A stretch of DNA of 64,000 nucleotides. It comes from Shigella phage Sf18. Of this stretch, positions 8,531 to 64,000 are shown in pieces. Under the pieces are notes generated by a model. It ran no database searches and was not told the DNA's origin. It saw only the letters and a list, made by a program, of their open reading frames with translations. Position 1 is the stretch's first letter. Each line of letters starts with the position of its first letter. Made by a program: the position numbers and the translations under genes. The stretch lies in the sequence record MF158044; one strand, given 5' to 3'.

Positions 8531-8830
8531 TTAATCTGCCAGCCTTAAGTTAAAGTTTACACCAAGTTTTGTACAAGCATTAAGCATGTACTCTAAAGAA
8601 ATCTTCTGAGGGTCGTTAATGATATTTGACACACGACTCTGTGAGATTTCACAAACAGTTGCTACTTGAGCCTGAGAAAGTTTTAGCTTCTCAATCTCTT
8701 TAGAGAATCTGAAAGATACAAAGTCTTTCATCTCTTCTATATCCATTGGACAGACATAACTCTCCATTTCAGCCTCTCTATCAGCCTCCCAAGAATCTTG
8801 AGGTGCATATGGGTCAAAGACTTCATTCAT
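8531..8830 (-). CDS. HTH (XRE-like) DNA-binding protein
   Basis: 99 aa; acidic N-terminus then helix-turn-helix-like segment QAQVATVCEISQSRVSNII. Confidence 0.4.
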   Translation of the reverse strand: MNEVFDPYAPQDSWEADREAEMESYVCPMDIEEMKDFVSFRFSKEIEKLKLSQAQVATVCEISQSRVSNIINDPQKISLEYMLNACTKLGVNFNLRLAD

Positions 8831-9485: not shown

Positions 9486-9744
9486 TATAGCTTATTTGGC
9501 AGATTTTTTATAAGGCTACTGCCATCCTTCCGCACCCGACCTGACCTCGCCCAACCTTACCTGACTGAACCACACCCGACCAAACATCACTTAAAAACCC
9601 TTTTCAAAGACTCTTAAGTGATGTAATCGAATTTTTATGTAGCTCCGATTAACTACCCATACCTAACCCCACCTTGCCACACCGAACCAGACCAAACCCA
9701 GCCTCATTAAAAGACCCTTTTAAAGACCTTTTAAAAAGGAGCCT
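9486..9744. repeat. composite repeat module A (pentamer NNACC tracts plus two hairpin modules)
   Basis: Two tracts of about 10 tandem 5-bp units with ACC every 5 nt; inverted repeat CATCACTTAA-N19-TTAAGTGATG; palindromic TTTTAAAAG-rich block; paralogous to 10886-11170. Confidence 0.6.
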
Positions 9745-9758
9745 CCGAAGAGGCTACC
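9734..9758 (-). terminator. intrinsic terminator
   Basis: On - strand AGCCTC-UUCG-GAGGCT hairpin followed by T-run, immediately downstream of the 9767 gene end. Confidence 0.45.
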
Positions 9759-9766
9759 TAGTCAAC

Positions 9767-10207
9767 TTAGAAAGGTTTTCTACGTTGCTTGTTAATGTTA
9801 GCTTTCATGGCAGCTAAATGGTTTTGCTGTTCAATCAGTCGTGAACGTTCTTGATGACTAAGTGCCATAGTGTTCACATTCTCAATCGCTTGAGTGGCTT
9901 GTTTTAAAGCACGACCAATCTTACTAGACATTTTACGTTTTGCAATAGTTGCTTGATGTTTAGGTTCCACCACACGATAACCAACACCCATTGAAGTGAC
10001 CAGATAAATCTTCTCTTCTTTAAGAAGCTTCTCAATAAACTTCTCAAGTCGATTTAGGCGTGTAAGTGCGTAAGCTTTCATTTCATCTTCGTACTTAACA
10101 ATGTCACCTTGATAAGTCGGCTTCACAATACCTAAGAAGGTGTCCATCTCAGAGTGTGATACAGTATCACCGTAACTGAACTTTGCTGCTAATGCTTTTG
10201 TATTCAT
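9767..10207 (-). CDS. hypothetical protein (cassette gene 2)
   Basis: 146-aa ORF; flanked with 10210-10812 by paralogous repeat modules. Confidence 0.4.
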   Translation of the reverse strand: MNTKALAAKFSYGDTVSHSEMDTFLGIVKPTYQGDIVKYEDEMKAYALTRLNRLEKFIEKLLKEEKIYLVTSMGVGYRVVEPKHQATIAKRKMSSKIGRALKQATQAIENVNTMALSHQERSRLIEQQNHLAAMKANINKQRRKPF

Positions 10208-10209
10208 AA

Positions 10210-10815
<606 letters not shown>

Positions 10816-10885
10816 TTAGTTGATTGTTAAGTTGTTTGTAAAGAACCCTCAACAGAAGACTCTTTAGAAACTTGGTAGATTTTTA

Positions 10886-11170
10886 ACGTGGCTACTACCA
10901 TCCACCCTTACCTCACTTTACCTAACCTGACCTTACCAGACCCAACCGGACACTACCCTACCTAGCGAAACCTCATTAAAAGACCCTTTTAAAGACCTTT
11001 TAAAAAGGTGAGTCTCATTTTAATGTAGCTGAGACTAACTACCCTCACCAAACCGGACCAGACCCAACCCAGCCATACCAGACCATACCACACCCAACCG
11101 AACCGAACCTTACCGAGCATCACTTAAAAACCCTCTTAAAAGACTCTTAAGTGATGCTGGTGAGTACCCG
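10886..11170. repeat. composite repeat module B (paralogue of module A)
   Basis: Same components as 9486-9744 (NNACC pentamer tracts, CATCACTTAA inverted repeat, CCTCATTAAAAGACCCTTTTAAAGACCTTTTAAAAAGG block) but with the two hairpin blocks in swapped order. Confidence 0.6.
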
Positions 11171-11377
11171 TTGGTTTATGCTGCTCAGTATACTCACCAA
11201 ATTTTCTATGTCAACAACTTTATATTAAAAATTCTCTGACTACTGCATTTACTACAAATGATAACAGAGTAAGGGCTAAGGCTGATTTGTATGTTATGCT
11301 TAACAGTTTACTTATGAAGTAAGATAATGATAAAACAACAAAAACAAACAGGATAATTGCGCTAAACATGCTAACCT

Positions 11378-12478
11378 CTATTCATAATCTCGTATAACAA
11401 GCCCAACAGGGAACTGTAAAGACCCCTTACGAGTCATCTTCTGGAACTGAACCGTTAAAGGCTTCCCGATAAACTCTTCAGGATGTTCAGCAAGATACTT
11501 TTTCTTCTCGTGTGTAGTTTTCCATGAAACATCTACAAAGACGTTAGGAAGAGTCTCTACAACGAACTTACCATGACCACGTTTATCAGTCTTTACACCA
11601 GTTACTTTAAATTCCTGTGTGTGCATCTTCTTGTGCTTAATCAGGAAGTAAGAGCGATGACCACACTCATAGAACGAATCTGGTGAGATTGACCGATACA
11701 TTGCCCCTTCAAACTTGAGTTTAACCCAGTTGTCATGAGCATTATCAAATTCTTCCCAAGAGTTAACACGGATTGTCTGAACAGGTACAACCCTGCAAGC
11801 ATCACCGAGTTCAACGATTGGTGAATTATCAATAACTTCACGACGCTCAGGCCAAGATTTAGTCTTGTCACAGATATCATACCAGTAGAATTTAAGAAGG
11901 TGACGGTCTGGATTGTCAGCATTCTTAATCATAGATACAATATCTTCCAAGTCCCAACCATGAGCATAAATCTCCCCGTCGAAATCCTCAACATCTTTGT
12001 GCAGTTTCAGCATAAGAAGAACATCAGGAATCAACTCTACAGGAATGTTGTATACCGTGTTCTCACGAGAATATGCCGTAAAACTTTCTGAGTCAGCATC
12101 TCTTGAAATCCTGCAACGAACACCATCAAGTTTAGGTTGAGCATCGGCAGGGAATACCAGATACTTCTTGTGACTTATCTTGGAAGCATCCTGAGCAAGC
12201 TGTACACCAACCTTCTCAACATTCTCTGCTTCAGATTTTGTGTAAGCATATCCTTTACGGTCAACCTGCTTCTTGTACTTAGCAGCAACTTCAAAGAGAG
12301 CTTGCTGTTCAGCATTACGCTCATTCTTTTTACCGATGTTCTTAGGTTCTGCTGTGTACTCTTCAAACATCATCTTGCCATTTTCTTTACCATAAGTTGT
12401 GACGACTTTATCACCTACAGCAACACATGACCAGACGTTGAAAGAACCATCTTTATTTTGTTTGTACAGAATTGTCAT
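11378..12478 (-). CDS. ATP-dependent DNA ligase
   Basis: 366 aa; adenylation motif KLDGVR (KxDG) and downstream nucleotidyltransferase-like blocks. Confidence 0.8.
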   Translation of the reverse strand: MTILYKQNKDGSFNVWSCVAVGDKVVTTYGKENGKMMFEEYTAEPKNIGKKNERNAEQQALFEVAAKYKKQVDRKGYAYTKSEAENVEKVGVQLAQDASKISHKKYLVFPADAQPKLDGVRCRISRDADSESFTAYSRENTVYNIPVELIPDVLLMLKLHKDVEDFDGEIYAHGWDLEDIVSMIKNADNPDRHLLKFYWYDICDKTKSWPERREVIDNSPIVELGDACRVVPVQTIRVNSWEEFDNAHDNWVKLKFEGAMYRSISPDSFYECGHRSYFLIKHKKMHTQEFKVTGVKTDKRGHGKFVVETLPNVFVDVSWKTTHEKKKYLAEHPEEFIGKPLTVQFQKMTRKGSLQFPVGLVIRDYE

Positions 12479-12681
12479 TTACGTTTCCCACCAATTTCTA
12501 CATCAATAACTTGTGTGTCTCCACAAACATCAAACTTATGAATGATATTCTCTACAGTGTAAGTCCAACCATCAATCCTTACCCATTCACCTTCTCGTGG
12601 CACTATTGGGTTACGTTGTGCTACAGTTGTAGTTGAGTGAACAACGTCATACTTATAGATAAAATTTACCAGAACCTGCAT
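12475..12681 (-). CDS. hypothetical protein
   Basis: Start moved to internal Met (MQVLVNF) preceded by GGAGGAT SD; avoids overlap with upstream lipoprotein gene. Confidence 0.35.
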   Translation of the reverse strand: MQVLVNFIYKYDVVHSTTTVAQRNPIVPREGEWVRIDGWTYTVENIIHKFDVCGDTQVIDVEIGGKRK

Positions 12682-12682
12682 A

Positions 12683-12928
12683 TCAATATCCTCCATCAAA
12701 AACTGTGGTGTGTGACTGACTATTCTTCCCATACTTGTAAGAAGTTGTAGTCTGAGAATTTGGGCAGCGAACTACAATAACATCCCTGCTAATGGCATCA
12801 CCATTAAGCTTATAAATCTTGCAGTCTTGCATTTCTGGAGGAAGTCTGTAAGAGGCATCCTTATTCTCATAAGAAGGGTTGCACCCCACCAGTAAGACTA
12901 CTAAAGCTGGTATCAATAATTTTAACAT
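12683..12928 (-). CDS. small lipoprotein
   Basis: 81 aa; signal peptide ending in lipobox LLVGC (MLKLLIPALVVLLVGC). Confidence 0.4.
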   Translation of the reverse strand: MLKLLIPALVVLLVGCNPSYENKDASYRLPPEMQDCKIYKLNGDAISRDVIVVRCPNSQTTTSYKYGKNSQSHTTVFDGGY

Positions 12929-12938
12929 TTTAAACCTC

Positions 12939-13190
12939 TCAATAAAATAAGTCTGAAGCTTTTGAATTTACAGGATTCAAAGAACCTTCGTAATGTTCTT
13001 CATAACCCTCTTGGCAGATATTATACAGTTCTTTGAATCGGGTTTCATCAACTGGTTTAACATCTTTCTTAGCGCATAAGAAGAGATACCAATCATACCC
13101 CAAATCCCTGCACCAAGCCTCTGAGACAAAAGCTATTGATTTGTCTTCGCTCTTGAAGATTGCTAAAGCTTCTTGCTCTTTATTGCTCAC
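12939..13190 (-). CDS. hypothetical protein
   Basis: 83-aa ORF, no recognisable motif. Confidence 0.35.
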   Translation of the reverse strand: MSNKEQEALAIFKSEDKSIAFVSEAWCRDLGYDWYLFLCAKKDVKPVDETRFKELYNICQEGYEEHYEGSLNPVNSKASDLFY

Positions 13191-13323
13191 GATACTCTAC
13201 CTCTCTAAAAGTTTTATGGTAATAGATTTTGTAGTAAGCTATCTCGTTACTTTTAACATTTGTTTTAAGAAGAGTCCAGTCATAACCTTCACCAACTCTT
13301 CCCCAAATGCTATAAAGTTTCAT
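13180..13323 (-). CDS. hypothetical small protein
   Basis: Start moved to internal Met (MKLYSIW) with GGAG SD; the longer track ORF would overlap the upstream gene. Confidence 0.3.
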   Translation of the reverse strand: MKLYSIWGRVGEGYDWTLLKTNVKSNEIAYYKIYYHKTFREVEYREQ

Positions 13324-13501
13324 TAAAGATACTCCATCCAGTTTTCTGCCAAGGTTCCCCCTTGTACCATGCAGCCATTGGGTAACCCATTTCACATACA
13401 ACCTTTCCGTCTTTTATTTCAAAGAACTCATCAGATGTGAAATTTTCATTTCGAACTTTCTTGCCCTGTTTCATAGCTTCGAGAGCTTCTTCGTATGTCA
13501 T
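13310..13501 (-). CDS. DUF2829-like small protein (possible Tad2-like anti-Thoeris sponge)
   Basis: 63 aa starting MTYEEALEAMKQGKKVRN, matching from memory the N-terminal signature of DUF2829/Tad2 proteins; GGAG SD; track start is a TTG extension. Confidence 0.35.
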   Translation of the reverse strand: MTYEEALEAMKQGKKVRNENFTSDEFFEIKDGKVVCEMGYPMAAWYKGEPWQKTGWSIFNETL

Positions 13502-13707
13502 TTTTGGTGTCTCCAAAATTCGATGTCAATAAGTTCCTGTGCAATACTCTTCAGATTCCCTTTCAAGAAAACCTTTTCAGAGTTAGGTAGGCTTGCATTA
13601 TCAATGAGTCTATTCATTCTGTCAAAAAGAGTTTTCTTCCGATTCTTGATAGTCTCTTTTGAAGCACCTTGCATCATGGCAAGATGAGTTCTTCCACGGT
13701 GGCTCAT
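13498..13707 (-). CDS. hypothetical protein
   Basis: 69-aa ORF, ATGA-coupled to neighbours. Confidence 0.3.
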   Translation of the reverse strand: MSHRGRTHLAMMQGASKETIKNRKKTLFDRMNRLIDNASLPNSEKVFLKGNLKSIAQELIDIEFWRHQK

Positions 13708-13904
13708 AGACGTTCACCTTTAAGGTAACCTGTCTTATCCTTGATAATCTTACCTCCAGCAATAAAAATATCAACCTTGCGAAGATTTTCATTAGAAAGC
13801 TTGAGGTGCTTATGGCTACTGCAAATGATGATGCACATAGTCTCAATCTCACTTTGAGAATATCCAGCACATTGCAGTTGAACTTCAATTTCTGAAATAG
13901 TCAT
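13704..13904 (-). CDS. hypothetical protein
   Basis: 66-aa ORF immediately downstream of DNA polymerase. Confidence 0.3.
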   Translation of the reverse strand: MTISEIEVQLQCAGYSQSEIETMCIIICSSHKHLKLSNENLRKVDIFIAGGKIIKDKTGYLKGERL

Positions 13905-13965
13905 ACAAGTCTCCTATACAATATATAGTATAAGGTACTCTTCCATGAGCACCTTGTCAACACTA

Positions 13966-16665
13966 TTAGTGGACTTCAAGCCACGATTTACCAACTTTCC
14001 CTGCACCTGTGACCAATGTCTCTTTTCTTAGCCCAAGGTTCTTAGATGCTTGACCATAATACCAGTCAGTTACTGCTTTCACATCTGCTGTCATGCTCTC
14101 TGGACATTCCCAGCTTGTTTCATCGTGGTAAGCACAGAGTAAGCGAGCACCAATAGCTGGTTTACGACCATTCAACTTCATCAAACCTTCGTCAATCATA
14201 CGACGACATGCAAGGTTGATTGCTTCATTCTGAACTTGTGCTTCTGAACCCATCAGCAAATAGTTCAAGAGTTTGTGTGGAGACTTACACCACAGCCAAG
14301 CCCCAGCAACCTTCACAAAACCACCTTTAGAGATTGCAGCAGTTTTACCAAACACCTCTTCAAGTGCTTTCTTAGTTGCTTTGAAATCAGCTTCCAAGTT
14401 GTCTAACAGTTTCTTAATCTTCGGCAAACGCACAAAGTAAGTCTGCTTAGTCAATGCACCTTCCTGAGTAGTTGCTGCTTTAATTGTCTTGGCAAACTTC
14501 TCATCACCTGCACCGAACAACAAAGCATAGATACCATTCTTAGCTTTCTTACGTCCCTTGCTAATCTCATGAAGAAGATTCTCATCCTGAGTAGCACGAC
14601 AAGTCAAGATATCTTGCTCATCATTAAGGCTGAAGTAGATACTGTTCAGAGTGTGAGCATCAGTCCCTGAGTAAACTACGTACAAATCGTTTTCAGAGTC
14701 GTAACGCAGATACTTGTCAATCTCTGGATTCAGATACTGGTCAAAGTGTTTACAGTAGTATCTTCCATCCTCTTGACGGACAAACTCAATCTCTTCTTTA
14801 CCCTCTGTTACCGCTTTGGTGAAGTCTTTATCACCCATGAAGTTACAGAGTAGTACAAGCTGTGCAGAGTTCATATCAACAGATACTACGTTGGTTCCCT
14901 CTTCACAAATCCACACTGCCCTCATTGGCTCACCGTACACGGCAGCACCAGAAGGTACGTTTACAATACCATACTGAGTCATACGTCCAGTAGAAGTACC
15001 AAACACCATTGCACCTGCACTCAAACGACCATCTGGACGAATCTGGTTCAGCCAACCTTTCTCATCATCCTTTGAGTTCTCAATAGTCCTGCGTCGGTGC
15101 ATCAAAGTATAGTACTTCGCAATCTTCTGTCCAAGCTCACCTTCGATTGTATCATAAGAAGACTCTGTAAGCTTTGGTGAAGTCCTAATCAAGCAAGGCT
15201 CAAGCACATCTGTGTACTTCTTAACAGACCAGTTATGCTCAATGTAATAGACACCTTCATGCTCAATGTAATTCAATCCACAACGTTCAACCATCTCATC
15301 CCACTTAGGATGTTTGCGAATCATCTTTTTGTTGTCTTTGAATCTGCAAACCTTGATAGGACGACCATCAGAATCTTTTTTATAGTTCCAATCATCAGGA
15401 ATCCAACCAACGGATTTTAAGTAATCCTTCACCACAGCTACCTGAGTCATTCGTGAAACTTCAAACTCAATTGGTGTAAATGGTGCATCAATCAAACCAG
15501 TGTAGCGACTAGACTCTAACTCAAAGTGATTAACAACGTGAACGTTGTAGTACTTCACAGTTTTCACAGTCTTAACTGGCTTCCAATCTTTACACTTCTT
15601 GCCAATCTTCTCATTCAGTTCATTACAAACTGCACGAGCATCTTTCATTGCTACAAAACCTTCAGGGTACTCTTCTTTTGTGACCGTGTTAGTTGGAGTG
15701 TAGCAGTTGCGCTTCTCAACATTAAAAATCTTTGTGGTTGGCTTACCATATGGCTTGATAGGGTACTGCTTCAACTCACCTTCACGCATCTGTTCACGAT
15801 ACTTTGTCTTAGGGTACTTGGTAATCCTTTTTAAACCGTCAACGTGACCAAATGTATCTACATACTCGTTCCAAGACTTGGCAAATTCTTCACCTGTAAC
15901 TTTACCTTTTGTCTTAATAGTTGGTGGAAGGTGTGGTTCAACCTCAGCAGCCAACTCATTAGTTAACTTGTCAAGCTCTTTAACGTGGAACTGCATAAGT
16001 TCTACATCAGCTTTCCAACCGTTGATAGCTTGCTGACTCATCCAGAAAGATGTTTCTTTAGCTCGCATGTAGGTTTCATAAGTGTCAACACCACACTTCT
16101 TAAGCTTGAGGTACTCATTATCAAGAGCACGTTTAGTTTTGGCGTTAATCTTAATATCTTCTACAACACGAGTAAGAATCTCTGCATTCCAGACACCCCA
16201 CTCTTCAATCTCTGGTTTACGAACACCAACACGAGCACCCCATGCAGCCAAACCATGAGCACCTTTGTAACCTTTTGGTGTAGGTCTATCCATCCACTGT
16301 ACGCGAGATTGGATAAGTGAATCCTGAAAGAAGTCACTCCAAGGCTTGCACTTAGGATTCTCAAAGTTCCACAGGTCAGGTGCAATGTGATTAAACACCC
16401 ACCAGTCATAACCAAGACCATTGTGGATACAAAGACGTTTAGCTTTCAGTGCAAACTCAACACCTTCACGCAGACCACCTTTGATGTATTTTGTATACTT
16501 GTGACCAAGAATAGGCTCATCAGTGAACACCCACACAGCAGGTTCATCACTGTCATCTTTATAGTCTGCGAAAGCCATTACGTGTGCTTTTGTAAACTCA
16601 AGGAGCAACCCATCAGTTTCTGTATCACCAACCAAATGTAATTTTTCGAAATCTACATTGTCCAT
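13966..16665 (-). CDS. DNA polymerase, family A, with 3'-5' exonuclease domain
   Basis: 899 aa; Exo I motif DTETDG; pol motif A (VDMNSAQL), motif B (KKAKNGIYALLFGAG), motif C (YHDE). Confidence 0.9.
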   Translation of the reverse strand: MDNVDFEKLHLVGDTETDGLLLEFTKAHVMAFADYKDDSDEPAVWVFTDEPILGHKYTKYIKGGLREGVEFALKAKRLCIHNGLGYDWWVFNHIAPDLWNFENPKCKPWSDFFQDSLIQSRVQWMDRPTPKGYKGAHGLAAWGARVGVRKPEIEEWGVWNAEILTRVVEDIKINAKTKRALDNEYLKLKKCGVDTYETYMRAKETSFWMSQQAINGWKADVELMQFHVKELDKLTNELAAEVEPHLPPTIKTKGKVTGEEFAKSWNEYVDTFGHVDGLKRITKYPKTKYREQMREGELKQYPIKPYGKPTTKIFNVEKRNCYTPTNTVTKEEYPEGFVAMKDARAVCNELNEKIGKKCKDWKPVKTVKTVKYYNVHVVNHFELESSRYTGLIDAPFTPIEFEVSRMTQVAVVKDYLKSVGWIPDDWNYKKDSDGRPIKVCRFKDNKKMIRKHPKWDEMVERCGLNYIEHEGVYYIEHNWSVKKYTDVLEPCLIRTSPKLTESSYDTIEGELGQKIAKYYTLMHRRRTIENSKDDEKGWLNQIRPDGRLSAGAMVFGTSTGRMTQYGIVNVPSGAAVYGEPMRAVWICEEGTNVVSVDMNSAQLVLLCNFMGDKDFTKAVTEGKEEIEFVRQEDGRYYCKHFDQYLNPEIDKYLRYDSENDLYVVYSGTDAHTLNSIYFSLNDEQDILTCRATQDENLLHEISKGRKKAKNGIYALLFGAGDEKFAKTIKAATTQEGALTKQTYFVRLPKIKKLLDNLEADFKATKKALEEVFGKTAAISKGGFVKVAGAWLWCKSPHKLLNYLLMGSEAQVQNEAINLACRRMIDEGLMKLNGRKPAIGARLLCAYHDETSWECPESMTADVKAVTDWYYGQASKNLGLRKETLVTGAGKVGKSWLEVH

Positions 16666-16924
16666 TTTTACTCCCTCTCAAATCATTCTGGATAATACCC
16701 TACAGCAATTTTCTTCAAAAAGCAAGTTGACAAACTACTTGACAAGGTGTTAGTCTTTTCGAAGTGGGTTTTATCTTAATAGACTCCCTTTATAGATTAA
16801 CTATACAGTTTCTTTAAAAGTCTTAAAAGATTTTTAATAGCTTTTAAAAAGCTTTAAAGTTATATGTATAACATACATAAAGATAAGAGATTAAAATCTT
16901 TATAGATACTTAACAGAGGCAATC
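16666..16924. promoter_or_regulatory. divergent promoter/control region
   Basis: 259-bp AT-rich gap between divergently transcribed polymerase and + strand genes; tandem TTGACA boxes (TTGACAAACTACTTGACAAGG) and clustered CTTTTAAAAG palindromes. Confidence 0.4.
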
Positions 16925-17365
16925 ATGCAGAGGATGTACGTTCACCCAGATATCAATAACCTTGTCCAAGCTTTAGAAAGAGTTGAAGCACTTTACATCG
17001 AGGCTCAGAAGGAGTATGCTTATCAACATCGTCGAATGGTTGATGTTCAGCATGAGATAGAACTATCAAGTGGATATGACGAAGGTTTAAAGTGCTCGGT
17101 ATTTGAGCACATGAAAGAGATATCTTCAGAAAGACGTAAAGCGAAAGACACAATCTTTTTGATAGATACCTTAAAAAATAAGTTGCAAAATGGAACGGAC
17201 TTAGATAGTCTATCCCAACTGCTTCAGGATGCAGAGAATACATGGGACAGAAATTACTTCCCACGGTCTGAAAAAGGGCTTGACTTCTCTTCACAAGAAA
17301 GCTTAAGATTATCACGACTTACTATTAACAAAATGAGAGAGATTAAAGATGAAAACTGTAAATGA
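16925..17365 (+). CDS. hypothetical protein
   Basis: 146-aa ORF, first gene of rightward unit, SD AGAGG. Confidence 0.4.
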   Translation: MQRMYVHPDINNLVQALERVEALYIEAQKEYAYQHRRMVDVQHEIELSSGYDEGLKCSVFEHMKEISSERRKAKDTIFLIDTLKNKLQNGTDLDSLSQLLQDAENTWDRNYFPRSEKGLDFSSQESLRLSRLTINKMREIKDENCK

Positions 17366-18143
17366 GATTCTGGAAGAAAAAGGTATTGACGAAGCATTCA
17401 TGCTGAACACCGTTGAGACTCTTGCTATCATTATGCGTAGCAACTCACTGTCAGGAAAATTTATCCCTGAATCTCTGCGTGTTGTAAAAAACGCTGTAGA
17501 GAATGACGAAGATTTCCGTAAAGAGGTTGAATACCTGCTGTCTAATAAGACTGATGCTCTGAAGACCATCTTCATTGGTGTTGATGCCTTTGCAGCATAC
17601 ATCTTTGATGAAATGTATTCAGGTGGATACATCCAGATTACTGAGAAGGGTATTAAAGAGCTTGATAACATGAGTGATGAAGACCTTCTGAAAGCTATTT
17701 GTACGCCAGTTGCTGCGGTAATGGCATCACTAGAGAAGCGTATGAATGATAAGTCACCACGTTATGCAAAACTGGATTGGGGCTTTGATGAAGTATCTGA
17801 CAAGGCAATTCAGTATGCTGATGAGACAATGAATAAGCTGTCAGAGATTACTAATGGTCTCTCTTTAGACCCTATTCAGGTTAAAGTGACTTCAATGTTA
17901 AATGCTATCTTTAGCATCATGGGTATCCACGCTTTACTTGAAGTTTCAAAGATGTTAGAGTCTGACCCAAGCTTTGTAGAGAGCATGTCACAAGGTGCTC
18001 ATACAGCAGCACTCGGAGAAGTATTTAGTCAAACTGGTGCAGCAGTTCTTAGCACTAAGATTGCAATTAACTTCGGTGAAGAGTTTGTTCAGCAGCTAGA
18101 AGCAATGTCTGAGCGTGAACTCACTGGTTCTAAACTACAATAA
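17349..18143 (+). CDS. hypothetical protein
   Basis: 264-aa ORF, no recognisable motif. Confidence 0.4.
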   Translation: MKTVNEILEEKGIDEAFMLNTVETLAIIMRSNSLSGKFIPESLRVVKNAVENDEDFRKEVEYLLSNKTDALKTIFIGVDAFAAYIFDEMYSGGYIQITEKGIKELDNMSDEDLLKAICTPVAAVMASLEKRMNDKSPRYAKLDWGFDEVSDKAIQYADETMNKLSEITNGLSLDPIQVKVTSMLNAIFSIMGIHALLEVSKMLESDPSFVESMSQGAHTAALGEVFSQTGAAVLSTKIAINFGEEFVQQLEAMSERELTGSKLQ

Positions 18144-46323: not shown

Positions 46324-46391
46324 TAAGTTACCCAGATAAACATAGACAAGCCCTCCAAAGTTTGAGTTTAAAATCTCAGGTAAGGGGGGCT

Positions 46392-46576
46392 TTTTCATTT
46401 TAAATTTGTGCAGGTATAGTTGCATAGAACTCTGGACAGATTTCTTTAGCTGAACTCCAAAGGGAAAATTCATTTCAAATTTGTGCAGGTTTAGACTCCA
46501 AAGGGATTTTTCATTTTCAATCTGTGCAGATGCAGTTGGACTCCAAAGGGAAAATTCATTTTCAGTTTGTGCAGGT
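46392..46576. repeat. tandem array of four ~42-bp repeats with TTTGTGCAGGT core
   Basis: Units (CTCCAAAGGG)(A/T)TTCATTT(Y)MARTYTGTGCAGRT at about 46392, 46466, 46507, 46552; followed by C-rich tract 46596-46630; related motif upstream of SLT-like gene at 42203-42230. Confidence 0.55.
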
Positions 46577-46749
46577 AGGTAGCTGTAGGAAACCAGCCCC
46601 ACCACCCCCTCTTACTCCCCTTCCTCCCAAAAGTCAAGAGAAAAATTTGTAGAGAACTCAAAAATAATTCTTGACTAGATTCCTGTTTTAGTGTATCCGC
46701 ATACGTGCGTTCTATTCACGAAGCATCGAAAATATTTTTAAAAATTTTG

Positions 46750-46778
46750 TTGACTTCATAAATCCAGTCTTATAGTAT
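46750..46778 (+). promoter_or_regulatory. type-B early promoter (first of array)
   Basis: TTGACT, spacer, TATAGTAT, then ATTTGCATCAACGGGAAACATCCC and conserved leader AACAATCCTAAACTGGAG. Confidence 0.4.
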
Positions 46779-46827
46779 TTGCATCAACGGGAAACATCCC
46801 AACAATCCTAAACTGGAGAATCTAAAA

Positions 46828-47204: not shown

Positions 47205-47293
47205 ATAAAGTGCTTTACATGGGGTTTAAAAGCTAGTATCTTAAGCCCCCAGATAAAGAGCTTTACCAACAATCCTAAACTGGAGAATCTAAA
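47205..47293 (+). promoter_or_regulatory. type-A cassette copy 1
   Basis: TTTACA-N17-TATCTT promoter-like hexamers embedded in 9-bp hairpin GGGGTTTAA/TTAAGCCCC, then CCCCAGATAAAGAGCTTTACCAACAATCCTAAACTGGAGAATCTAAAATG. Confidence 0.5.
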
Positions 47294-47674: not shown

Positions 47675-47765
47675 ATAAAGTCCTTTACATGGGGTTTATA
47701 GTTAGATAAGATAAGCCCCAGATAAAGAGCTTTACCAAACAATAACCTAAACTGGAGTATCAAAA
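47675..47765 (+). promoter_or_regulatory. type-A cassette copy 2
   Basis: TTTACA-N17-TAAGAT with hairpin GGGGTTTAT/ATAAGCCCC; leader variant CCTAAACTGGAGTATCAAAAATG. Confidence 0.5.
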
Positions 47766-48023: not shown

Positions 48024-48114
48024 TAAAGTGCTTTACATGGGGTTTATAGTTAGATAATATAAGCCCCAGATAAAGAGCTTTACTAACCAATAGTCCTAAA
48101 CTGGAGAATCTAAA
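48024..48114 (+). promoter_or_regulatory. type-A cassette copy 3
   Basis: TTTACA-N17-TAATAT with hairpin; conserved leader. Confidence 0.5.
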
Positions 48115-48627: not shown

Positions 48628-48711
48628 AAGTGCTTTACATGGGGTTATCAAGTTGATAAGATAGCCCCAGATAAAGAGCTTTACAAACAATCCTAAACTG
48701 GAGAATCTAAA
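48628..48711 (+). promoter_or_regulatory. type-A cassette copy 4
   Basis: Hairpin variant GGGGTTATC/GATAGCCCC (compensatory change keeps pairing); TTTACA-N17-TAAGAT. Confidence 0.5.
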
Positions 48712-49629: not shown

Positions 49630-49718
49630 TAAATTGCTTTACATGGGGTTATCAAGTTGCTAAGATAGCCCCAGATAAAGAGATTTATCTAAAACTAACC
49701 TAAACTGGAGACTAGAAA
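49630..49718 (+). promoter_or_regulatory. type-A cassette copy 5
   Basis: Hairpin variant GGGGTTATC/GATAGCCCC; leader variant ACCTAAACTGGAGACTAGAAAATG. Confidence 0.5.
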
Positions 49719-50447: not shown

Positions 50448-50532
50448 AAGTGCTTTACATGGGGTTTATAGTTAGATAAGATAAGCCCCAGATAAAGAGC
50501 TTTACCAACAATCCTAAACTGGAGAATCTAAA
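50448..50532 (+). promoter_or_regulatory. type-A cassette copy 6
   Basis: Consensus copy: TAAAAGTGCTTTACATGGGGTTTATAGTTAGATAAGATAAGCCCCAGATAAAGAGCTTTACCAACAATCCTAAACTGGAGAATCTAAAATG. Confidence 0.5.
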
Positions 50533-51684: not shown

Positions 51685-51775
51685 CTAATAAAGTGCTTTA
51701 CATGGGGTTTATAGTTAGCTAAGATAAGCCCCAGATAAAGAGCTTTACCAACAATCCTAAACTGGAGAATCTAGA
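51685..51775 (+). promoter_or_regulatory. type-A cassette copy 7
   Basis: TTTACA-N17-TAAGAT with hairpin; leader CTGGAGAATCTAGAATG. Confidence 0.5.
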
Positions 51776-51973: not shown

Positions 51974-52058
51974 AGTGCTTTACATGGGGTTTAAAAGCTA
52001 GTATCTTAAGCCCCAGAGAAAGAGCTTTACCAACAATCCTAAACTGGAGAATCTGAAA
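51974..52058 (+). promoter_or_regulatory. type-A cassette copy 8
   Basis: Hairpin variant GGGGTTTAA/TTAAGCCCC; -10-like TATCTT. Confidence 0.5.
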
Positions 52059-52400: not shown

Positions 52401-52597
52401 TCAACAACTTATAAAAAATCTTTTGAAAAACTATTGACAATGCCCCTTGACAAGTGTAACTTTGTTCGAGGGGGTTTATCTAAAAGGGGTTAACTTAATA
52501 GATTCTTTATAGATAAGCGTAAAAAGTACTTGCAAAGGTCTAATCATATCTATATAGTATCTTCAAAAGGCAACTTCCTAAACTGGAGAATCACTAA
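52401..52597 (+). promoter_or_regulatory. intergenic control region with stacked promoter-like boxes
   Basis: TTGACAATGCCCCTTGACAAG (two -35-like boxes) and TTGCAA-spacer-TATATAGTA, then leader CCTAAACTGGAGAATCACTAAATG. Confidence 0.35.
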
Positions 52598-53971: not shown

Positions 53972-54012
53972 CAAGTCGCCGCAACGGGGCAAATAGCCCC
54001 AGACACCTTTAC

Positions 54013-54035
54013 AGCCCCTTAGATGGGGCTTTTTT
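54013..54035 (+). terminator. intrinsic terminator closing the rightward unit
   Basis: AGCCCC-TTAGAT-GGGGCT hairpin followed by TTTTT; a second hairpin CGGGGC-AAATA-GCCCC sits just upstream. Confidence 0.55.
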
Positions 54036-55581
54036 ACGTCTTCCTAGAATCTTACCATTGATTCGATAGAATCTATCCCATACATTTAGAATAATAACTC
54101 TATAGCTTACTCTATATCCTCTTATCAAATCAACTTAAATATAAGCCCATAACCCGAAAGGGAAGGGCAATCCCTAAAACGCTCTATAACGCTCTATACG
54201 GGCTTATCATCTCATCTTAAGCAATCATATTAACCTGCTCTTAAAAGCCCTTTATAGAGCTTTCTAGAGCCTTAAAAGAATCTTATAAGGGTATAAGCTT
54301 TATTATCTCGTTAGTATCTTGTGAATGGTTAAACAGGGGCTTGATAATAGCTTTAAAGTATGTTATGGAGTCTTCAAAGTAACGTAAAAGAACCTTAAAA
54401 GTAACGTAAAAGTTAGCCCCCTTTACATTCTCTTAACAAAATCTTAACAAATGCTACATAGTTATGCTTGTTAGCCCCTTGTTAAATCCTTGTTAGAGGT
54501 ATGTTAAGAGCTTGTTAGCCTCTTTGAAGTCCCTGTATAAGCCCCTAGAAAGCCCTATAAAGAGCTATACAGGTAGTTGGGGTGTAGTTACTAGGGAGAA
54601 CCTTAGAAGAGGCTATATAGAGCTATACAGAGCTTTTAAGAGGGCTTTATAGAGAATCACTAAGAAGGGAAGGGAACTATAGACCAAGAGATAGTGACCA
54701 TGTTAATAGCTTGTTAAAAAGGTTTAGAACTTGTTAGCACCTTGTTAATTATCTTAACAAAATAACTCTTAAGATTTAACTATTTAGCAACTTATAAGCA
54801 ACTTGTTAGACCCTTGTTAGTAGTGTTACAGACTGGTTAAGCTCTTGTTAGTTCTGTTAAGAGGCTGTTAAGAACTTTGAAGAGATGTTAAGAGCTTGAG
54901 AGAGTTGTTAAGAGATTGTTAATGATATTTTAAGATTTTGCAAAGGGGATGTTACAGGGCTGTTTAGGGCTACCAAGCAGATATACACCCTAAGTAGATA
55001 TTTTTCAGATTCTCCAAAGACCCTAAAAAGTAACCTACCTAGTCTATTTTATAAAAATTTTATAATTCTGAATAACTATCTATACACTATCTTATATAAA
55101 ACAGGAATTAACAGGCTTATAAGATACCTTGTTAGTACCGTGTTAGACCTTGTAGGATAAGCCTAAGAGGTTGATTCTTAAGAACAACCGAATCAACTAG
55201 AAGGGAATACCTGTTTAGTGTTATATAACAGTCTATATAGAGGCTTAGTAATACCTAGTGATTCTGCTATATAGGGTACTATCGTTTACCTAGAGATTAA
55301 GATGGCTATAGGGGCTTCTAAGGGGCTAGGAAGAGGTTAGGAAGGTGATTGTATAGGGTTGATTAATGGTAGGCTTAGAAGGCTTTATAGAGGGCTATAT
55401 AGAGAGCACTATTTAGGGACTAAGAGGTTATATAGATACTATATAATACTATATAGAGATGATGCTTAGAGAGGGTGTTTAGAAGGGTATAGATATTTTA
55501 TCACATATCATGGTGACCCAAGATGAACGGAGTGAATCCCAAATTTTATAAAAATTATAAATTTCGTAAATTTTACTCAAT
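54036..55581. repeat. ORF-free repeat-dense region (candidate origin, packaging or terminus region)
   Basis: No ORF of 60 aa or more on either strand across about 1.6 kb; dense short degenerate repeats (CTTGTTAG, GTTAAGAG, TATAGAGC, TTAGAAGG, AGTAACGTAAAAG x2) and AT-rich palindromes ATTTTATAAAAAT. Confidence 0.6.
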
Positions 55582-55602
55582 AAAAAGCCCCAATTAAGGG
55601 GC
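55582..55602 (-). terminator. intrinsic terminator closing the leftward unit
   Basis: On - strand GCCCC-TTAATT-GGGGC hairpin followed by TTTTT, directly after the stop of the 55612 gene. Confidence 0.5.
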
Positions 55603-55611
55603 TGTATAGTT

Positions 55612-63922: not shown

Positions 63923-64000
63923 AAATAATCCTCTTGTCGTCTATAATTTTGAAAGTATAGGTACAAACCAATTTCAGAGGATTTGTAATAGAGTAATTCT

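What the first reader, a model, noticed from the sequence alone, without database searches (positions are those of the whole stretch)
16666..16924. Divergent control region with tandem -35 boxes and TTTTAAAAG palindrome clusters shared with the repeat modules
The gap between the leftward polymerase operon and the rightward replication genes contains TTGACAAACTACTTGACAAGG and at least four CTTTTAAAAG-type palindromes. The same palindrome family forms a block in the repeat modules at about 9700-9745 and 10970-11012. Recurrent palindromes at three loci suggest binding sites for a dimeric regulator or nucleoid protein.
Basis: seen in the sequence. Interest (0 to 1): 0.35.

Follow-up and report, generated by a model that had tools for sequence, protein, structure and literature searches.

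The report
Conserved early promoter and AT-rich palindrome
The gap between the DNA polymerase gene and the other replication genes of this Felix-O1-like phage is a strongly conserved control region: back-to-back host-type promoters followed by the most AT-rich, self-complementary stretch of the genome, built from short CTT..AAG words whose exact role (RNA hairpin, protein sites or replication start) is still open.

Summary
The window is a Felix-O1-like myophage (Mooglevirus, 99.6% to Shigella phage Sf15). The finding is the homologue of the Felix O1 gene 96/97 gap, which the 2010 genome paper assumed to hold divergent early promoters without finding any.

The string TTGACAAACTACTTGACAAGG is exact at 16727. 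The decamer CTTTTAAAAG is absent from the window. Four degenerate T/A words plus one variant sit at 16812-16859, and this cluster is non-random. The refined family CTTWWAAG occurs 14 times in noncoding DNA against 2.2 expected.

New results:
- The gap core is 89% identical between genera whose third codon positions are 57-65% identical.
- Both TTGACA boxes and four of the words are invariant in 14 lineages.
- The tandem-box promoter has two paralogues per genome, each followed by T/A words and an inverted repeat.
- 16813-16912 is the most AT-rich and least stable 100 bp of the genome.
- The words are the arms of a ~95-nt imperfect palindrome that folds better than shuffles and has compensatory changes at its base.

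Best reading: sigma-70 divergent promoters plus a structured, transcribed leader. Moderately interesting; not a new kind of element.

The parts
16666..16924 (.). Whole divergent intergenic region between the DNA polymerase gene (leftward) and the gene-97 homologue (rightward); 27.8% G+C.
   Evidence: Homologue of the Felix O1 96/97 gap.
16697..16725 (-). Predicted leftward promoter for the polymerase operon. On the minus strand it reads TTGCTT (16725-16720), 17 nt, TAGGGT (16702-16697). Felix and Suspvirus have TTGCTT-N17-TAATGT.
   Evidence: Read. The AAAGCAAG block is invariant in 14 lineages. The consensus scan did not report it, so it is an inference.
16727..16756 (+). Rightward promoter with a duplicated -35 box: TTGACA (16727-32), TTGACA (16739-44), TG (16748-49), -10 TAGTCT (16751-56; 18-nt spacer from box 1). 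Predicted start near 16762.
   Evidence: Both boxes, the TG and TA(R)TCT are invariant in 14 lineages while the bases between the boxes vary. It aligns with TTGACA-N18-TACATT in Erwinia phage and TTGACA-N17-TAATGT in Yersinia phage. The -10 hexamer matches only 3 of 6, so one search did not list it.
16757..16775 (+). Conserved initial transcribed block TTTCGAAGTGGGTTTTATC, shared with the paralogue at 52466.
16775..16797 (+). CTTAATAGA and CTTTATAGAT words. The second is segment X, the left base of the palindrome.
   Evidence: CTTTATAGA with up to 1 mismatch: 64 against 26 +/- 5 expected. Covaries with 16877-16882.
16812..16859 (.). T/A word array: U1 CTTTAAAAG, U2 CTTAAAAG, U3 ATTTTTAAT, U4 AGCTTTTAAAAAGCT, U5 CTTTAAAG. 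U1 pairs with U5 and U2 with U4 in the predicted hairpin.
16788..16882 (+). About 95-nt imperfect AT-rich palindrome that contains the word array.
   Evidence: Fold z-score -2.68 as RNA and -3.36 as DNA, 0 of 200 shuffles as good. Compensatory changes at two base pairs.
16863..16879 (+). Local hairpin or palindrome TATGTAT-AAC-ATACATA (segments Y and Z).
   Evidence: 100% paired with 2 compensatory pairs in 7 sequences and 3 in 14. Lost in the divergent contigs L172 and L173.
16813..16912 (.). Most AT-rich (17% G+C) and least stable 100 bp of the window. The same holds for the homologous stretch of Felix O1.
16898..16907 (+). Second copy of CTTTATAGAT (segment W), which can pair with 16877-16884.
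   Evidence: D6, I15.
16915..16927 (+). Shine-Dalgarno AGAGG and the ATG of the 146-aa gene-97 homologue.
52434..52515 (+). Paralogue of the left half of the gap: TTGACAATGCCCCTTGACAAG, TGTAAC, TTCGAGGGGGTTTATCT, CTTAATAGA, CTTTATAGAT.
   Evidence: Conserved in Felix O1 at 11269.
9705..9739 (.). T/A block of repeat module 1: CATTAAAAGACCCTTTTAAAGACCTTTTAAAAAGG. It abuts a leftward terminator hairpin at 9740-9757.
10974..11009 (.). T/A block of repeat module 2, the same sequence as in module 1.
8531..8830 (-). 99-aa XRE-type helix-turn-helix protein, the only recognisable candidate dimeric DNA binder near the locus (Felix O1 ORF85 'transcriptional regulator').
   Evidence: PF01381, E = 2.8e-8. 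Binding is untested.

Best explanation
This is the conserved early control region of a Felix-O1-like phage.

Shown:
- Two host-type (sigma-70-like) promoters sit back to back.
- The rightward one (TTGACA, 18 nt, TG-n-TAGTCT, with a second TTGACA inside the spacer) belongs to a three-copy promoter family that heads the main rightward transcription units.
- Downstream of it lies a sequence that is about 80% A+T, conserved well above the neutral level.
- Its short CTT..AAG words are mutually complementary and form a ~95-nt imperfect palindrome.

Inferred:
- The promoter transcribes about 165 nt of leader before the first gene.
- The T/A words act mainly as the paired arms of a nucleic-acid structure in that leader.
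- The structure is most probably an AU-rich RNA hairpin set with alternative pairings: segment Z (16873-82) can pair with X (16788), Y (16863) or W (16898).
- This structure would control processing, stability or translation of the replication-gene mRNA, in the way RNase III leader sites do behind the tandem early promoters of T7.

The same DNA may also serve as an easily melted element. These functions are not mutually exclusive.
For: Identity and context:
-, and PMC3185647, which records that polymerase (ORF96) transcripts appear within 5 min and that no promoter had been found in this gap.

Selection:
- The gap core 16715-16860 is 89% identical between three genera, against 57-65% at third codon positions of the flanking genes.
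- The adjacent protein is only 61% identical between the window and Felix O1.
- The boxes, the TG, the -10 and words U1, U2, U4 and U5 are invariant in 14 lineages. All variation in the block falls in predicted loops and spacers.

Promoter:
- It aligns with clearer TTGACA-N17/18-TAnnnT promoters in Erwinia and Yersinia relatives.
- Paralogues lie at 52434 and in the next divergent gap and in Felix O1 at 11269, 21515 (the paper's P41) and 63532.

Structure:
- The palindrome core folds with z = -2.68 as RNA, 0 of 200 shuffles as good.
- The leader of the third paralogue folds with z = -2.49 and has a well-defined centroid that includes the ribosome-binding site.
- Every relative and paralogue has 15-26-nt inverted repeats 31-64 nt apart downstream of the promoter, with different sequences.
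- Columns 119 and 121 of alignment A3 each covary with two partners: T-A to C-G, and T-A to A-T. The counts on 14 sequences are.
- The conserved parts of U1 and U4 end where complementarity to U5 and U2 ends.
- The Suspvirus A-to-G change breaks the 15-bp palindrome but adds a C-G pair to U2:U4.
- CTTAAAAG/CTTTTAAG pairs occur with spacers of 1, 3 and 11 nt.
Against: - No transcript data exist, and the -10 hexamer matches only 3 of 6 (one search did not list the promoter).
- The full leader folds no better than shuffles (z = -1.16).
- The DNA fold is as significant as the RNA fold, so the strand and the molecule are not decided.
- The word helices never vary, so they say nothing for or against pairing.
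- The complete lack of A-U to U-A flips in 14 lineages suggests sequence-specific reading, such as a protein would give.
- Covariation rests on two or three events and could also reflect concerted evolution of repeats.
- The local hairpin is lost in contigs L172 and L173.
- CTTWWAAG words also occur in the 1.6-kb ORF-free region behind a strong terminator, where an RNA role is unlikely.
- The sense-strand bias of CTTAAAAG does not exceed the background A-richness.
- No Rfam family matches.
Confidence: 0.4

Rival explanations
1. Operator array. The CTT..AAG words are double-stranded DNA sites for a small dimeric phage regulator, either the XRE helix-turn-helix protein at 8531-8830 or an unrecognised ribbon-helix-helix-like protein. 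It would bind downstream of the three tandem-box promoters and shut off or tune early transcription, as the omega or MetJ repressors do with arrays of short repeats.
For: - CTTWWAAG occurs 14 times in noncoding DNA against 2.2 expected, while coding DNA is at expectation, and it far exceeds same-composition control palindromes.
- The family is three-fold over expectation in the noncoding DNA of two genera.
- The words are invariant in 14 lineages, with variable spacers.
- Perfect palindromes occur at AGCTTTT-A-AAAAGCT and CTTAAAAG-C-CTTTTAAG.
- In Erwinia phages CTTTAAAG overlaps the -35 box of the proximal promoter (TTGACTTTAAAG).
- An HTH_3 gene is present in the leftward operon.
- Words also occur in probably untranscribed DNA at 54.2-54.7 kb.
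Against: - The geometry is not fixed. The central W run is 2, 4 or 5 nt long in U4 of different lineages, and paired words have spacers of 1, 3 or 11 nt.
- The sites lie +50 to +100 from the start, not over the promoter core.
- U1 lacks its terminal G in most lineages.
- There is no evidence that any protein binds. The HTH protein has no relative with a solved structure.
- Palindromes with arms of 7 nt or more are not over-represented overall: 30 against 22.6 +/- 4.2.
Confidence: 0.22
2. Transcription-activated replication origin. As at the T7 primary origin (tandem promoters followed by an AT-rich stretch) or T4 oriF/oriG (promoter plus unwinding element), host RNA polymerase starting at the tandem-box promoter opens the AT-rich palindrome. 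The phage primase-helicase and family-A polymerase then load there.
For: - 16813-16912 is the genome-wide minimum of G+C (17%) and of duplex stability, and the homologous Felix O1 stretch is that genome's minimum too.
- It lies 45-150 nt downstream of a conserved strong promoter.
- It sits at the cumulative GC-skew minimum, between the divergent polymerase and primase-helicase operons.
- The replisome genes are T7-like: family-A polymerase, a Toprim+DnaB fusion and a ligase.
- As single-stranded DNA it folds with z = -3.36.
- No origin is described for this phage group in the searched literature.
Against: - The GC-skew switch is fully confounded with gene orientation.
- Sequence conservation (93% in 16820-16859) is far more than an unwinding element needs.
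- The same promoter-plus-words design occurs at two other loci.
- The 1.6-kb ORF-free region at 54.0-55.6 kb, with 11 CTTGTTA repeats at 11-bp multiples, looks more like a classical iteron origin.
Confidence: 0.25
3. Compositional by-product. An AT-rich promoter-proximal spacer (UP-element-like or curved DNA) in which T-runs followed by A-runs arise by chance or by slippage, with no specific word function.
For: - The exact decamer is absent.
- With one mismatch the count is not significant.
- T(n)A(n) runs are self-complementary by nature, so inverted repeats come for free.
- The sense-strand bias equals the background.
Against: - Only 3 of 5000 local shuffles reach the observed count.
- The family is three- to six-fold enriched within noncoding DNA after per-segment Markov control.
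- The words are invariant in 14 lineages while neighbouring bases change.
- There is no significant 10-11-bp phasing, so a curvature role is not supported either.
Confidence: 0.05

Closest known systems
Felix O1 gene 96/97 intergenic region (Whichard et al. 2010, PMC3185647)
   Same: Direct homologue: same flanking genes, and about 82% identity over the gap (89% in its core). That paper assumed divergent early promoters here.
   Different: The paper reported no recognisable promoter in this gap. It did not describe the duplicated -35 box, the three-copy promoter family, the CTT..AAG words or the palindrome.
Phage T7 early region (tandem host-type promoters A1-A3 followed by the RNase III leader site R0.3), from my own knowledge
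   Same: Strong sigma-70 promoters in tandem are followed by a long imperfect leader hairpin ahead of the first gene. The phage relies on host RNA polymerase for early genes.
   Different: Here the tandem feature is two -35 boxes 12 nt apart, not complete promoters. The hairpin is much more AU-rich. RNase III cleavage is untested.
T7 primary origin / T4 oriF-oriG (promoter plus AT-rich unwinding element), from my own knowledge
   Same: Promoter(s) immediately upstream of the most AT-rich stretch, with T7-like polymerase and primase-helicase genes nearby.
   Different: Host rather than phage polymerase would be the activator. The sequence is conserved word by word. Two further loci share the design. 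No initiation data exist.
Arrays of short repeats bound by small dimeric repressors (MetJ metboxes, omega heptads), from my own knowledge
   Same: Short (7-10 bp) words in direct and inverted orientation, repeated 2-5 times near promoters.
   Different: The words here are not contiguous or evenly spaced, and they lie downstream of the start. No cognate protein is identified.

Membership tests
Sigma-70 (host RNA polymerase) promoter | -35 hexamer close to TTGACA | tested here: met
   Two perfect TTGACA boxes at 16727 and 16739, invariant in 14 lineages.
Sigma-70 (host RNA polymerase) promoter | -10 hexamer close to TATAAT, 16-18 nt downstream | tested here: inconclusive
   TAGTCT lies 18 nt from box 1 and matches 3 of 6, including the key T1, A2 and T6, with an upstream TG. 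The consensus scan did not list it. The position aligns with TACATT and TAATGT in distant relatives. Box 2 has no usable -10.
Sigma-70 (host RNA polymerase) promoter | Mapped transcription start | not testable with these tools
   No start-site data for Ounavirinae were found in the paper library.
Operator for a dimeric repressor | Palindromic sites of one fixed geometry | tested here: not met
   The central W run of the words is 2-5 nt long. Complementary word pairs have spacers of 1, 3 and 11 nt.
Operator for a dimeric repressor | Overlap with the promoter core or start site | tested here: not met
   In the window the words lie +50 to +100 from the predicted start. In Erwinia phages one word does overlap a -35 box.
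Operator for a dimeric repressor | Cognate DNA-binding protein that binds the sites | not testable with these tools
   A candidate HTH_3 protein is at 8531-8830. Binding is unknown.
Promoter-coupled phage replication origin (T7/T4 type) | Promoter directly upstream of an AT-rich, easily melted stretch | tested here: met
   Genome-wide minimum of G+C and of duplex stability at 16813-16912, and likewise in Felix O1.
Promoter-coupled phage replication origin (T7/T4 type) | Initiation of DNA synthesis mapped there | not testable with these tools
   Needs marker-frequency or 2-D gel data. None was found.
Structured regulatory leader RNA | Folds better than shuffled sequence | tested here: inconclusive
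   Core z = -2.68. Whole leader z = -1.16. The DNA fold is equally good.
Structured regulatory leader RNA | Compensatory base changes | tested here: inconclusive
   2-4 pairs have changes on both sides, and 0-1 of 500 shuffles reach the observed number of cells changed on both sides. These rest on two or three events, and the word helices never vary.
Any described RNA family (Rfam 15) | Match at gathering score | tested here: not met
   0 matches in the whole window. No tRNA either.
Intrinsically phased or curved A/T-tract DNA (nucleoid-protein wrap) | 10-11-bp periodicity of the G/C punctuation | tested here: not met
   Peak power is not above shuffles at 16800-16900 (p = 0.53). By contrast 54000-55600 gives p = 0.024 and 55200-55600 gives 0 of 500 shuffles.

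The most novel reading that the evidence does not exclude
The tandem-box promoter plus the AT-rich palindrome is the replication origin of Felix-O1-like phages. Host RNA polymerase would fire it, and it would be read by a T7-like primase-helicase and polymerase pair. The CTT..AAG words would be specific loading or priming signals, reused at secondary origins and in the repeat modules.
Probability: 0.2. Interest if true: 0.55.

Novelty: new member of a known kind. Interest (0 to 1): 0.38.

Why it matters
Felix O1 and its relatives are widely used typing, biocontrol and therapy phages. Yet the 2010 genome paper states that how their transcription is temporally regulated is unknown, and no origin is described for them.

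This gap offers concrete handles for start-site mapping, footprinting and origin mapping:
- It is the most constrained noncoding DNA seen here.
- It holds an undescribed three-copy promoter family.
- It holds a noncoding-specific word, CTTWWAAG.

The handles are also useful for engineering these phages. It is a refinement of known kinds of elements, not a new principle.

Tried and rejected
- Exact-motif test: CTTTTAAAAG is absent, so the family had to be redefined.
- Helical phasing or curvature: not significant in this gap.
- Sense-strand bias of CTTAAAAG as an argument for an RNA role: 3:1 in the window and 10:1 in Felix O1, no greater than the 2-2.7:1 background of TTAAAA.
- A proximal sigma-70 promoter near the ATG: ATAACA-N18-TAAAAT is not conserved in Felix or Suspvirus.
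- DnaA-box-like TTATCCAGA at 16687-16695: not conserved.
- Late-promoter idea for CTTTATAGA: no such word upstream of the structural genes.
- Link to the iterons of the 1.6-kb region: the dominant repeat there (CTTGTTA) is absent from this gap.
- Scans of IMG/VR:
  - Tandem-box pattern: mostly unrelated promoters, plus the 52434-type copy.
  - TTTAATAGCTTTTAA: 4 near-identical Felixounavirus gaps among many chance hits.
- First rightward gene as a possible regulator: no Pfam hit, and a PHROG of unknown function. The model is all-helical (pLDDT 75), with no fold match below E = 0.1.
- HTH protein against solved structures: no hit.
- Rfam and tRNA scans: nothing.
- General excess of short perfect palindromes: none.

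Full report
**Identity and context**

The window is a Felix-O1-like myophage (Ounavirinae, Mooglevirus). The stretch 16000-17600 is 99.6% identical to Shigella phage Sf15, and 259 phage records match it.

The gap 16666-16924 separates two sets of genes:
- a leftward family-A DNA polymerase (13966-16665, PF00476);
- a rightward set: a 146-aa protein of unknown function, a 264-aa protein, a dNMP kinase and a Toprim/DnaB primase-helicase.

It is the homologue of the Felix O1 gene 96/97 gap. The Felix O1 genome paper (PMC3185647) makes four relevant statements:
- It assumed that transcription starts from divergent promoters there.
- It noted polymerase transcripts within 5 min.
- It reported that no host-like promoter could be found in that gap.
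- It stated that temporal regulation is unknown.

I found no start-site or origin mapping for this phage group in the paper library.

**Check of the observation**

TTGACAAACTACTTGACAAGG is exact and unique at 16727-16747. The quoted decamer CTTTTAAAAG does not occur anywhere in the window (0 matches against 0.2 expected). With one mismatch there are 11 matches against 6.8 +/- 2.6 expected, which is not significant.

The gap really holds five T/A words:
- CTTTAAAAG at 16812;
- CTTAAAAG at 16822;
- ATTTTTAAT at 16830;
- CTTTTAAAAAG at 16841, inside the perfect 15-bp palindrome AGCTTTT-A-AAAAGCT;
- the 8-bp palindrome CTTTAAAG at 16852.

For the family C-T(2-4)-A(3-5)-G and its complement, the counts are as follows:
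- The gap has 4 hits against 0.43 expected from dinucleotide shuffles of the gap itself (3 of 5000 shuffles reach 4).
- It is the only place in the window with 3 or more hits per 100 bp.
- The window total is 49 against 28.2 +/- 4.6 expected.

Enrichment is confined to noncoding DNA:
- Inside noncoding segments, with a per-segment first-order Markov control, the family occurs 27 times against 8.2 +/- 2.9 in this genome type and 27 against 8.7 +/- 2.8 in Felix O1.
- The tightest description is CTTWWAAG. It occurs 14 times in noncoding DNA against 2.24 +/- 1.45 expected (0 of 300 simulations), and 10 times against 6.9 in coding DNA.
- Most same-composition control palindromes give 0-4 noncoding hits. 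The exception is CTAWWTAG with 8, which is the CTATATAG word of the 1.6-kb region.

The sharing with the repeat modules is real:
- The 11-mer CTTTTAAAAAG occurs only at 9728, 10997 and 16841.
- The modules also carry TTAAAAG-ACC-CTTTTAA and ACCTTTT-A-AAAAGGT.

**Selection**

Between three genera (Mooglevirus, Suspvirus, Felixounavirus), identity is as follows:

| Region | Identity |
|---|---|
| Whole gap | 82% |
| Gap core 16715-16860 | 89% |
| 16740-16779 | 93% |
| 16820-16859 | 93% |
| Third codon positions of the flanking genes | 57-65% |

The neighbouring 146-aa protein is only 61% identical between the window and Felix O1.

I added five metagenome-assembled lineages and Sf13 to make an alignment of 14 lineages. 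Invariant in all 14 are:
- AAAGCAAGTTGACA;
- CTTGACA.GGTG.TA.TCTT;
- AGTGGGTTT;
- U1 CTTTAAA;
- U2 CTTAAAAGA;
- U4 CTTTTAA;
- U5 CTTTAAAG.

The 5-6 bases between the two TTGACA boxes, and the spacers between words, vary in sequence and in length by +/-1.

**Promoters**

Rightward promoter:
- It reads TTGACA (16727), 18 nt, TG-t-TAGTCT (16748-56).
- The -10 hexamer matches only 3 of 6, which is why the consensus scan missed it.
- It keeps T1, A2 and T6 and an upstream TG.
- It aligns with TTGACA-N18-TACATT-CTTTTCG in Erwinia phage phiEa104 and with TTGACA-N17-TAATGT in Yersinia phage P778.
- The second box has no usable -10, and its invariance is unexplained.

Leftward promoter:
- It reads TTGCTT-N17-TAGGGT (TAATGT in Felix and Suspvirus) and abuts the first box.
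- This call is an inference.

A new finding is that the tandem-box promoter is a three-copy family:
- One copy is at 52434. It shares TGTnA, TTCGA.G.GGGTTT.ATCT, CTTAATAGA and CTTTATAGAT with the gap.
- One copy is in the next divergent gap, just beyond the right end of the window (Sf15 ~74263).
- Felix O1 has the same three, at 11269, 21515 (the paper's P41) and 63532.
- Each is followed by T/A words. The third gap has a perfect CTTAAAAG-C-CTTTTAAG that is conserved between Sf15 and Felix O1.

**Anatomy of the T/A block**

- 16813-16912 has 17% G+C. It is both the most AT-rich and the thermodynamically least stable 100 bp of the 64-kb window. The rest of the genome and Felix O1 give the same result for the homologous stretch.
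- The words are mutually complementary: U1 with U5 and U2 with U4. Together with CTATAC/GTATA and CTTTAT/ATAAAG they make a ~95-nt imperfect palindrome at 16788-16882.
- This core folds better than all 200 dinucleotide shuffles, as RNA (z = -2.68) and as DNA (z = -3.36).
- The whole 169-nt leader does not fold better than shuffles (z = -1.16).
- Segment Z (ATACATAAAG, 16873-82) can pair with X (CTTTATAG, 16788), with Y (TATGTAT, 16863; the local 7-bp hairpin) or with W (16898).
- Between genera, two positions of Z changed and both X and Y changed with them: T-A to C-G, and T-A to A-T. On 14 sequences, 3-4 pairs show double changes, and 0-1 of 500 shuffles reach the observed number of cells changed on both sides.
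- These are few events. The word helices never vary, so they are silent on the question.

Three further points favour pairing over independent palindromic sites:
- The conserved parts of U1 and U4 end exactly where complementarity to U5 and U2 ends.
- The Suspvirus A-to-G change destroys the 15-bp palindrome but adds a C-G pair to U2:U4.
- CTTAAAAG/CTTTTAAG pairs occur with spacers of 1, 3 and 11 nt at different loci.

Paralogues and distant relatives all carry 15-26-nt inverted repeats 31-64 nt apart downstream of the promoter, with different sequences. The leader of the third paralogue folds with z = -2.49 into a defined hairpin that includes its ribosome-binding site.

**What argues the other way**

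- There is a total absence of A-U to U-A flips in the words over 14 lineages.
- The noncoding-specific enrichment of CTTWWAAG, and its presence behind a strong terminator in the 1.6-kb ORF-free region, point to sequence-specific reading, which a protein would give.
- A candidate exists: a 99-aa XRE-type helix-turn-helix protein at 8531-8830, annotated as a transcriptional regulator in Felix O1, wV8 and UAB_Phi87. Nothing shows that it binds here.
- The origin reading is supported by the genome-wide AT maximum, its place downstream of a strong promoter, the T7-like replisome genes and the GC-skew minimum.
- The origin reading is weakened in three ways: the skew is confounded with gene orientation, the design recurs at three loci, and a better iteron-like candidate lies at 54.0-55.6 kb.
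- Helical phasing of the words is not significant.
- The sense-strand bias does not exceed the background.

**The repeat modules**

- The modules (9500-9745 and 10880-11150) lie between a terminator and the next promoter of the leftward operon.
- They flank two genes that Felix O1 lacks.
- They occur at one to five places per genome, several in many records, and are annotated as DR_4 or repeat_region in some records.
- Felix O1 itself has only a degenerate copy without the main T/A block. That block is therefore lineage-specific and shares words, not position or context, with the polymerase gap.

**Verdict**

| Reading | Confidence |
|---|---|
| Conserved back-to-back sigma-70 promoter region whose rightward, duplicated-box promoter transcribes a structured, extremely AT-rich leader built from CTT..AAG words | 0.4 |
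| Transcription-activated origin | 0.25 |
| Dimeric-regulator operator array | 0.22 |
| Compositional by-product | 0.05 |

The first three readings are not mutually exclusive. This is a new, better-resolved member of known kinds of element. Its interest is moderate and mostly practical, for a much-used phage group whose regulation and origin are unmapped.

Noticed in passing
window 53972-55611: A 1.6-kb stretch without ORFs lies between convergent transcription units. It is packed with short repeats: CTTGTTA(G/A) 11 times at multiples of 11 bp (54467-54511, 54710-54741, 54802-54845), TGTTAAGAG, GCTATA(T/C)AGAG and CTTWWAAG. The G/C punctuation has a 10.5-11.5-bp period (p = 0.024 overall; 0 of 500 shuffles for 55200-55600). 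It holds the second most AT-rich 100 bp of the window. Felix O1 has the same ORF-free region at 12306-13927. The physical ends of a relative (UAB_Phi87, 608-bp terminal repeats) map, by my own coordinate estimate, near the terminase gene, not here. It may be an iteron-type origin or a partition or packaging site.
   Followed up: partly
window 9500-9745 and 10880-11150: The repeat modules consist of ~60-nt runs rich in ACC (GGT-NN on the transcribed strand, roughly a 5-nt repeat), hairpins with the loop GCTACAT(T/A)AAAA, and T/A blocks. They sit between a terminator and the next promoter and flank two genes (9767-10812) that Felix O1 lacks. One to five places per genome match, several in many records, and some records annotate them as DR_4 or repeat_region. 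Function unknown.
   Followed up: partly
window 47205-47293, 47675-47765, 48024-48114, 48628-48711, 49630-49718, 50448-50532, 51685-51775, 51974-52058: Eight near-identical ~85-90-bp cassettes lie between small genes. Each has a promoter-like CTTTACA-N17-TAAGAT/TATCTT whose spacer is itself a GGGG..CCCC hairpin, then AGATAAAGAGCTTTACC, then a conserved ribosome-site context CCTAAACTGGAGAATCTAAAATG. They correspond to the 57-bp direct repeats noted in the Felix O1 paper.
   Followed up: no
window 46324-46827: A 504-bp intergenic region holds four direct copies of about TTCATTT(T)CAAATTTGTGCAGGT, three of them preceded by ACTCCAAAGGGAAAA, followed by a C-rich run and two strong TTGACT promoters.
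   Followed up: no
just right of window end (window 63923-64000 and beyond; L044 24116-24505 minus strand): The window ends inside another divergent gap, the Felix O1 40/41 homologue. It carries the third tandem-TTGACA promoter, a GATATC-containing repeat and CTTAAAAG-C-CTTTTAAG immediately before the first gene. Its leader folds with z = -2.49.
   Followed up: partly
window-wide; exact copies at 16788, 16898, 34857(-), 43401, 49045(-), 52505, 53324(-), 54250, 54645, 55383: The word CTTTATAGA with up to 1 mismatch occurs 64 times against 26 +/- 5 expected. Most exact copies are in noncoding DNA. It is a second over-represented word and co-occurs with CTTWWAAG in the promoter leaders and in the 1.6-kb region.
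   Followed up: partly
window 17349-18143: This 264-aa gene, in the middle of the replication module, is called 'minor tail protein' in RefSeq records and in its PHROG (phrog_4251). The position makes that name doubtful.
   Followed up: no
window 16687-16695: TCTGGATAA is the reverse complement of TTATCCAGA, an 8-of-9 match to the DnaA box. It is not conserved in Mijalis, Suspvirus or Felix O1, so it is probably chance.
   Followed up: yes
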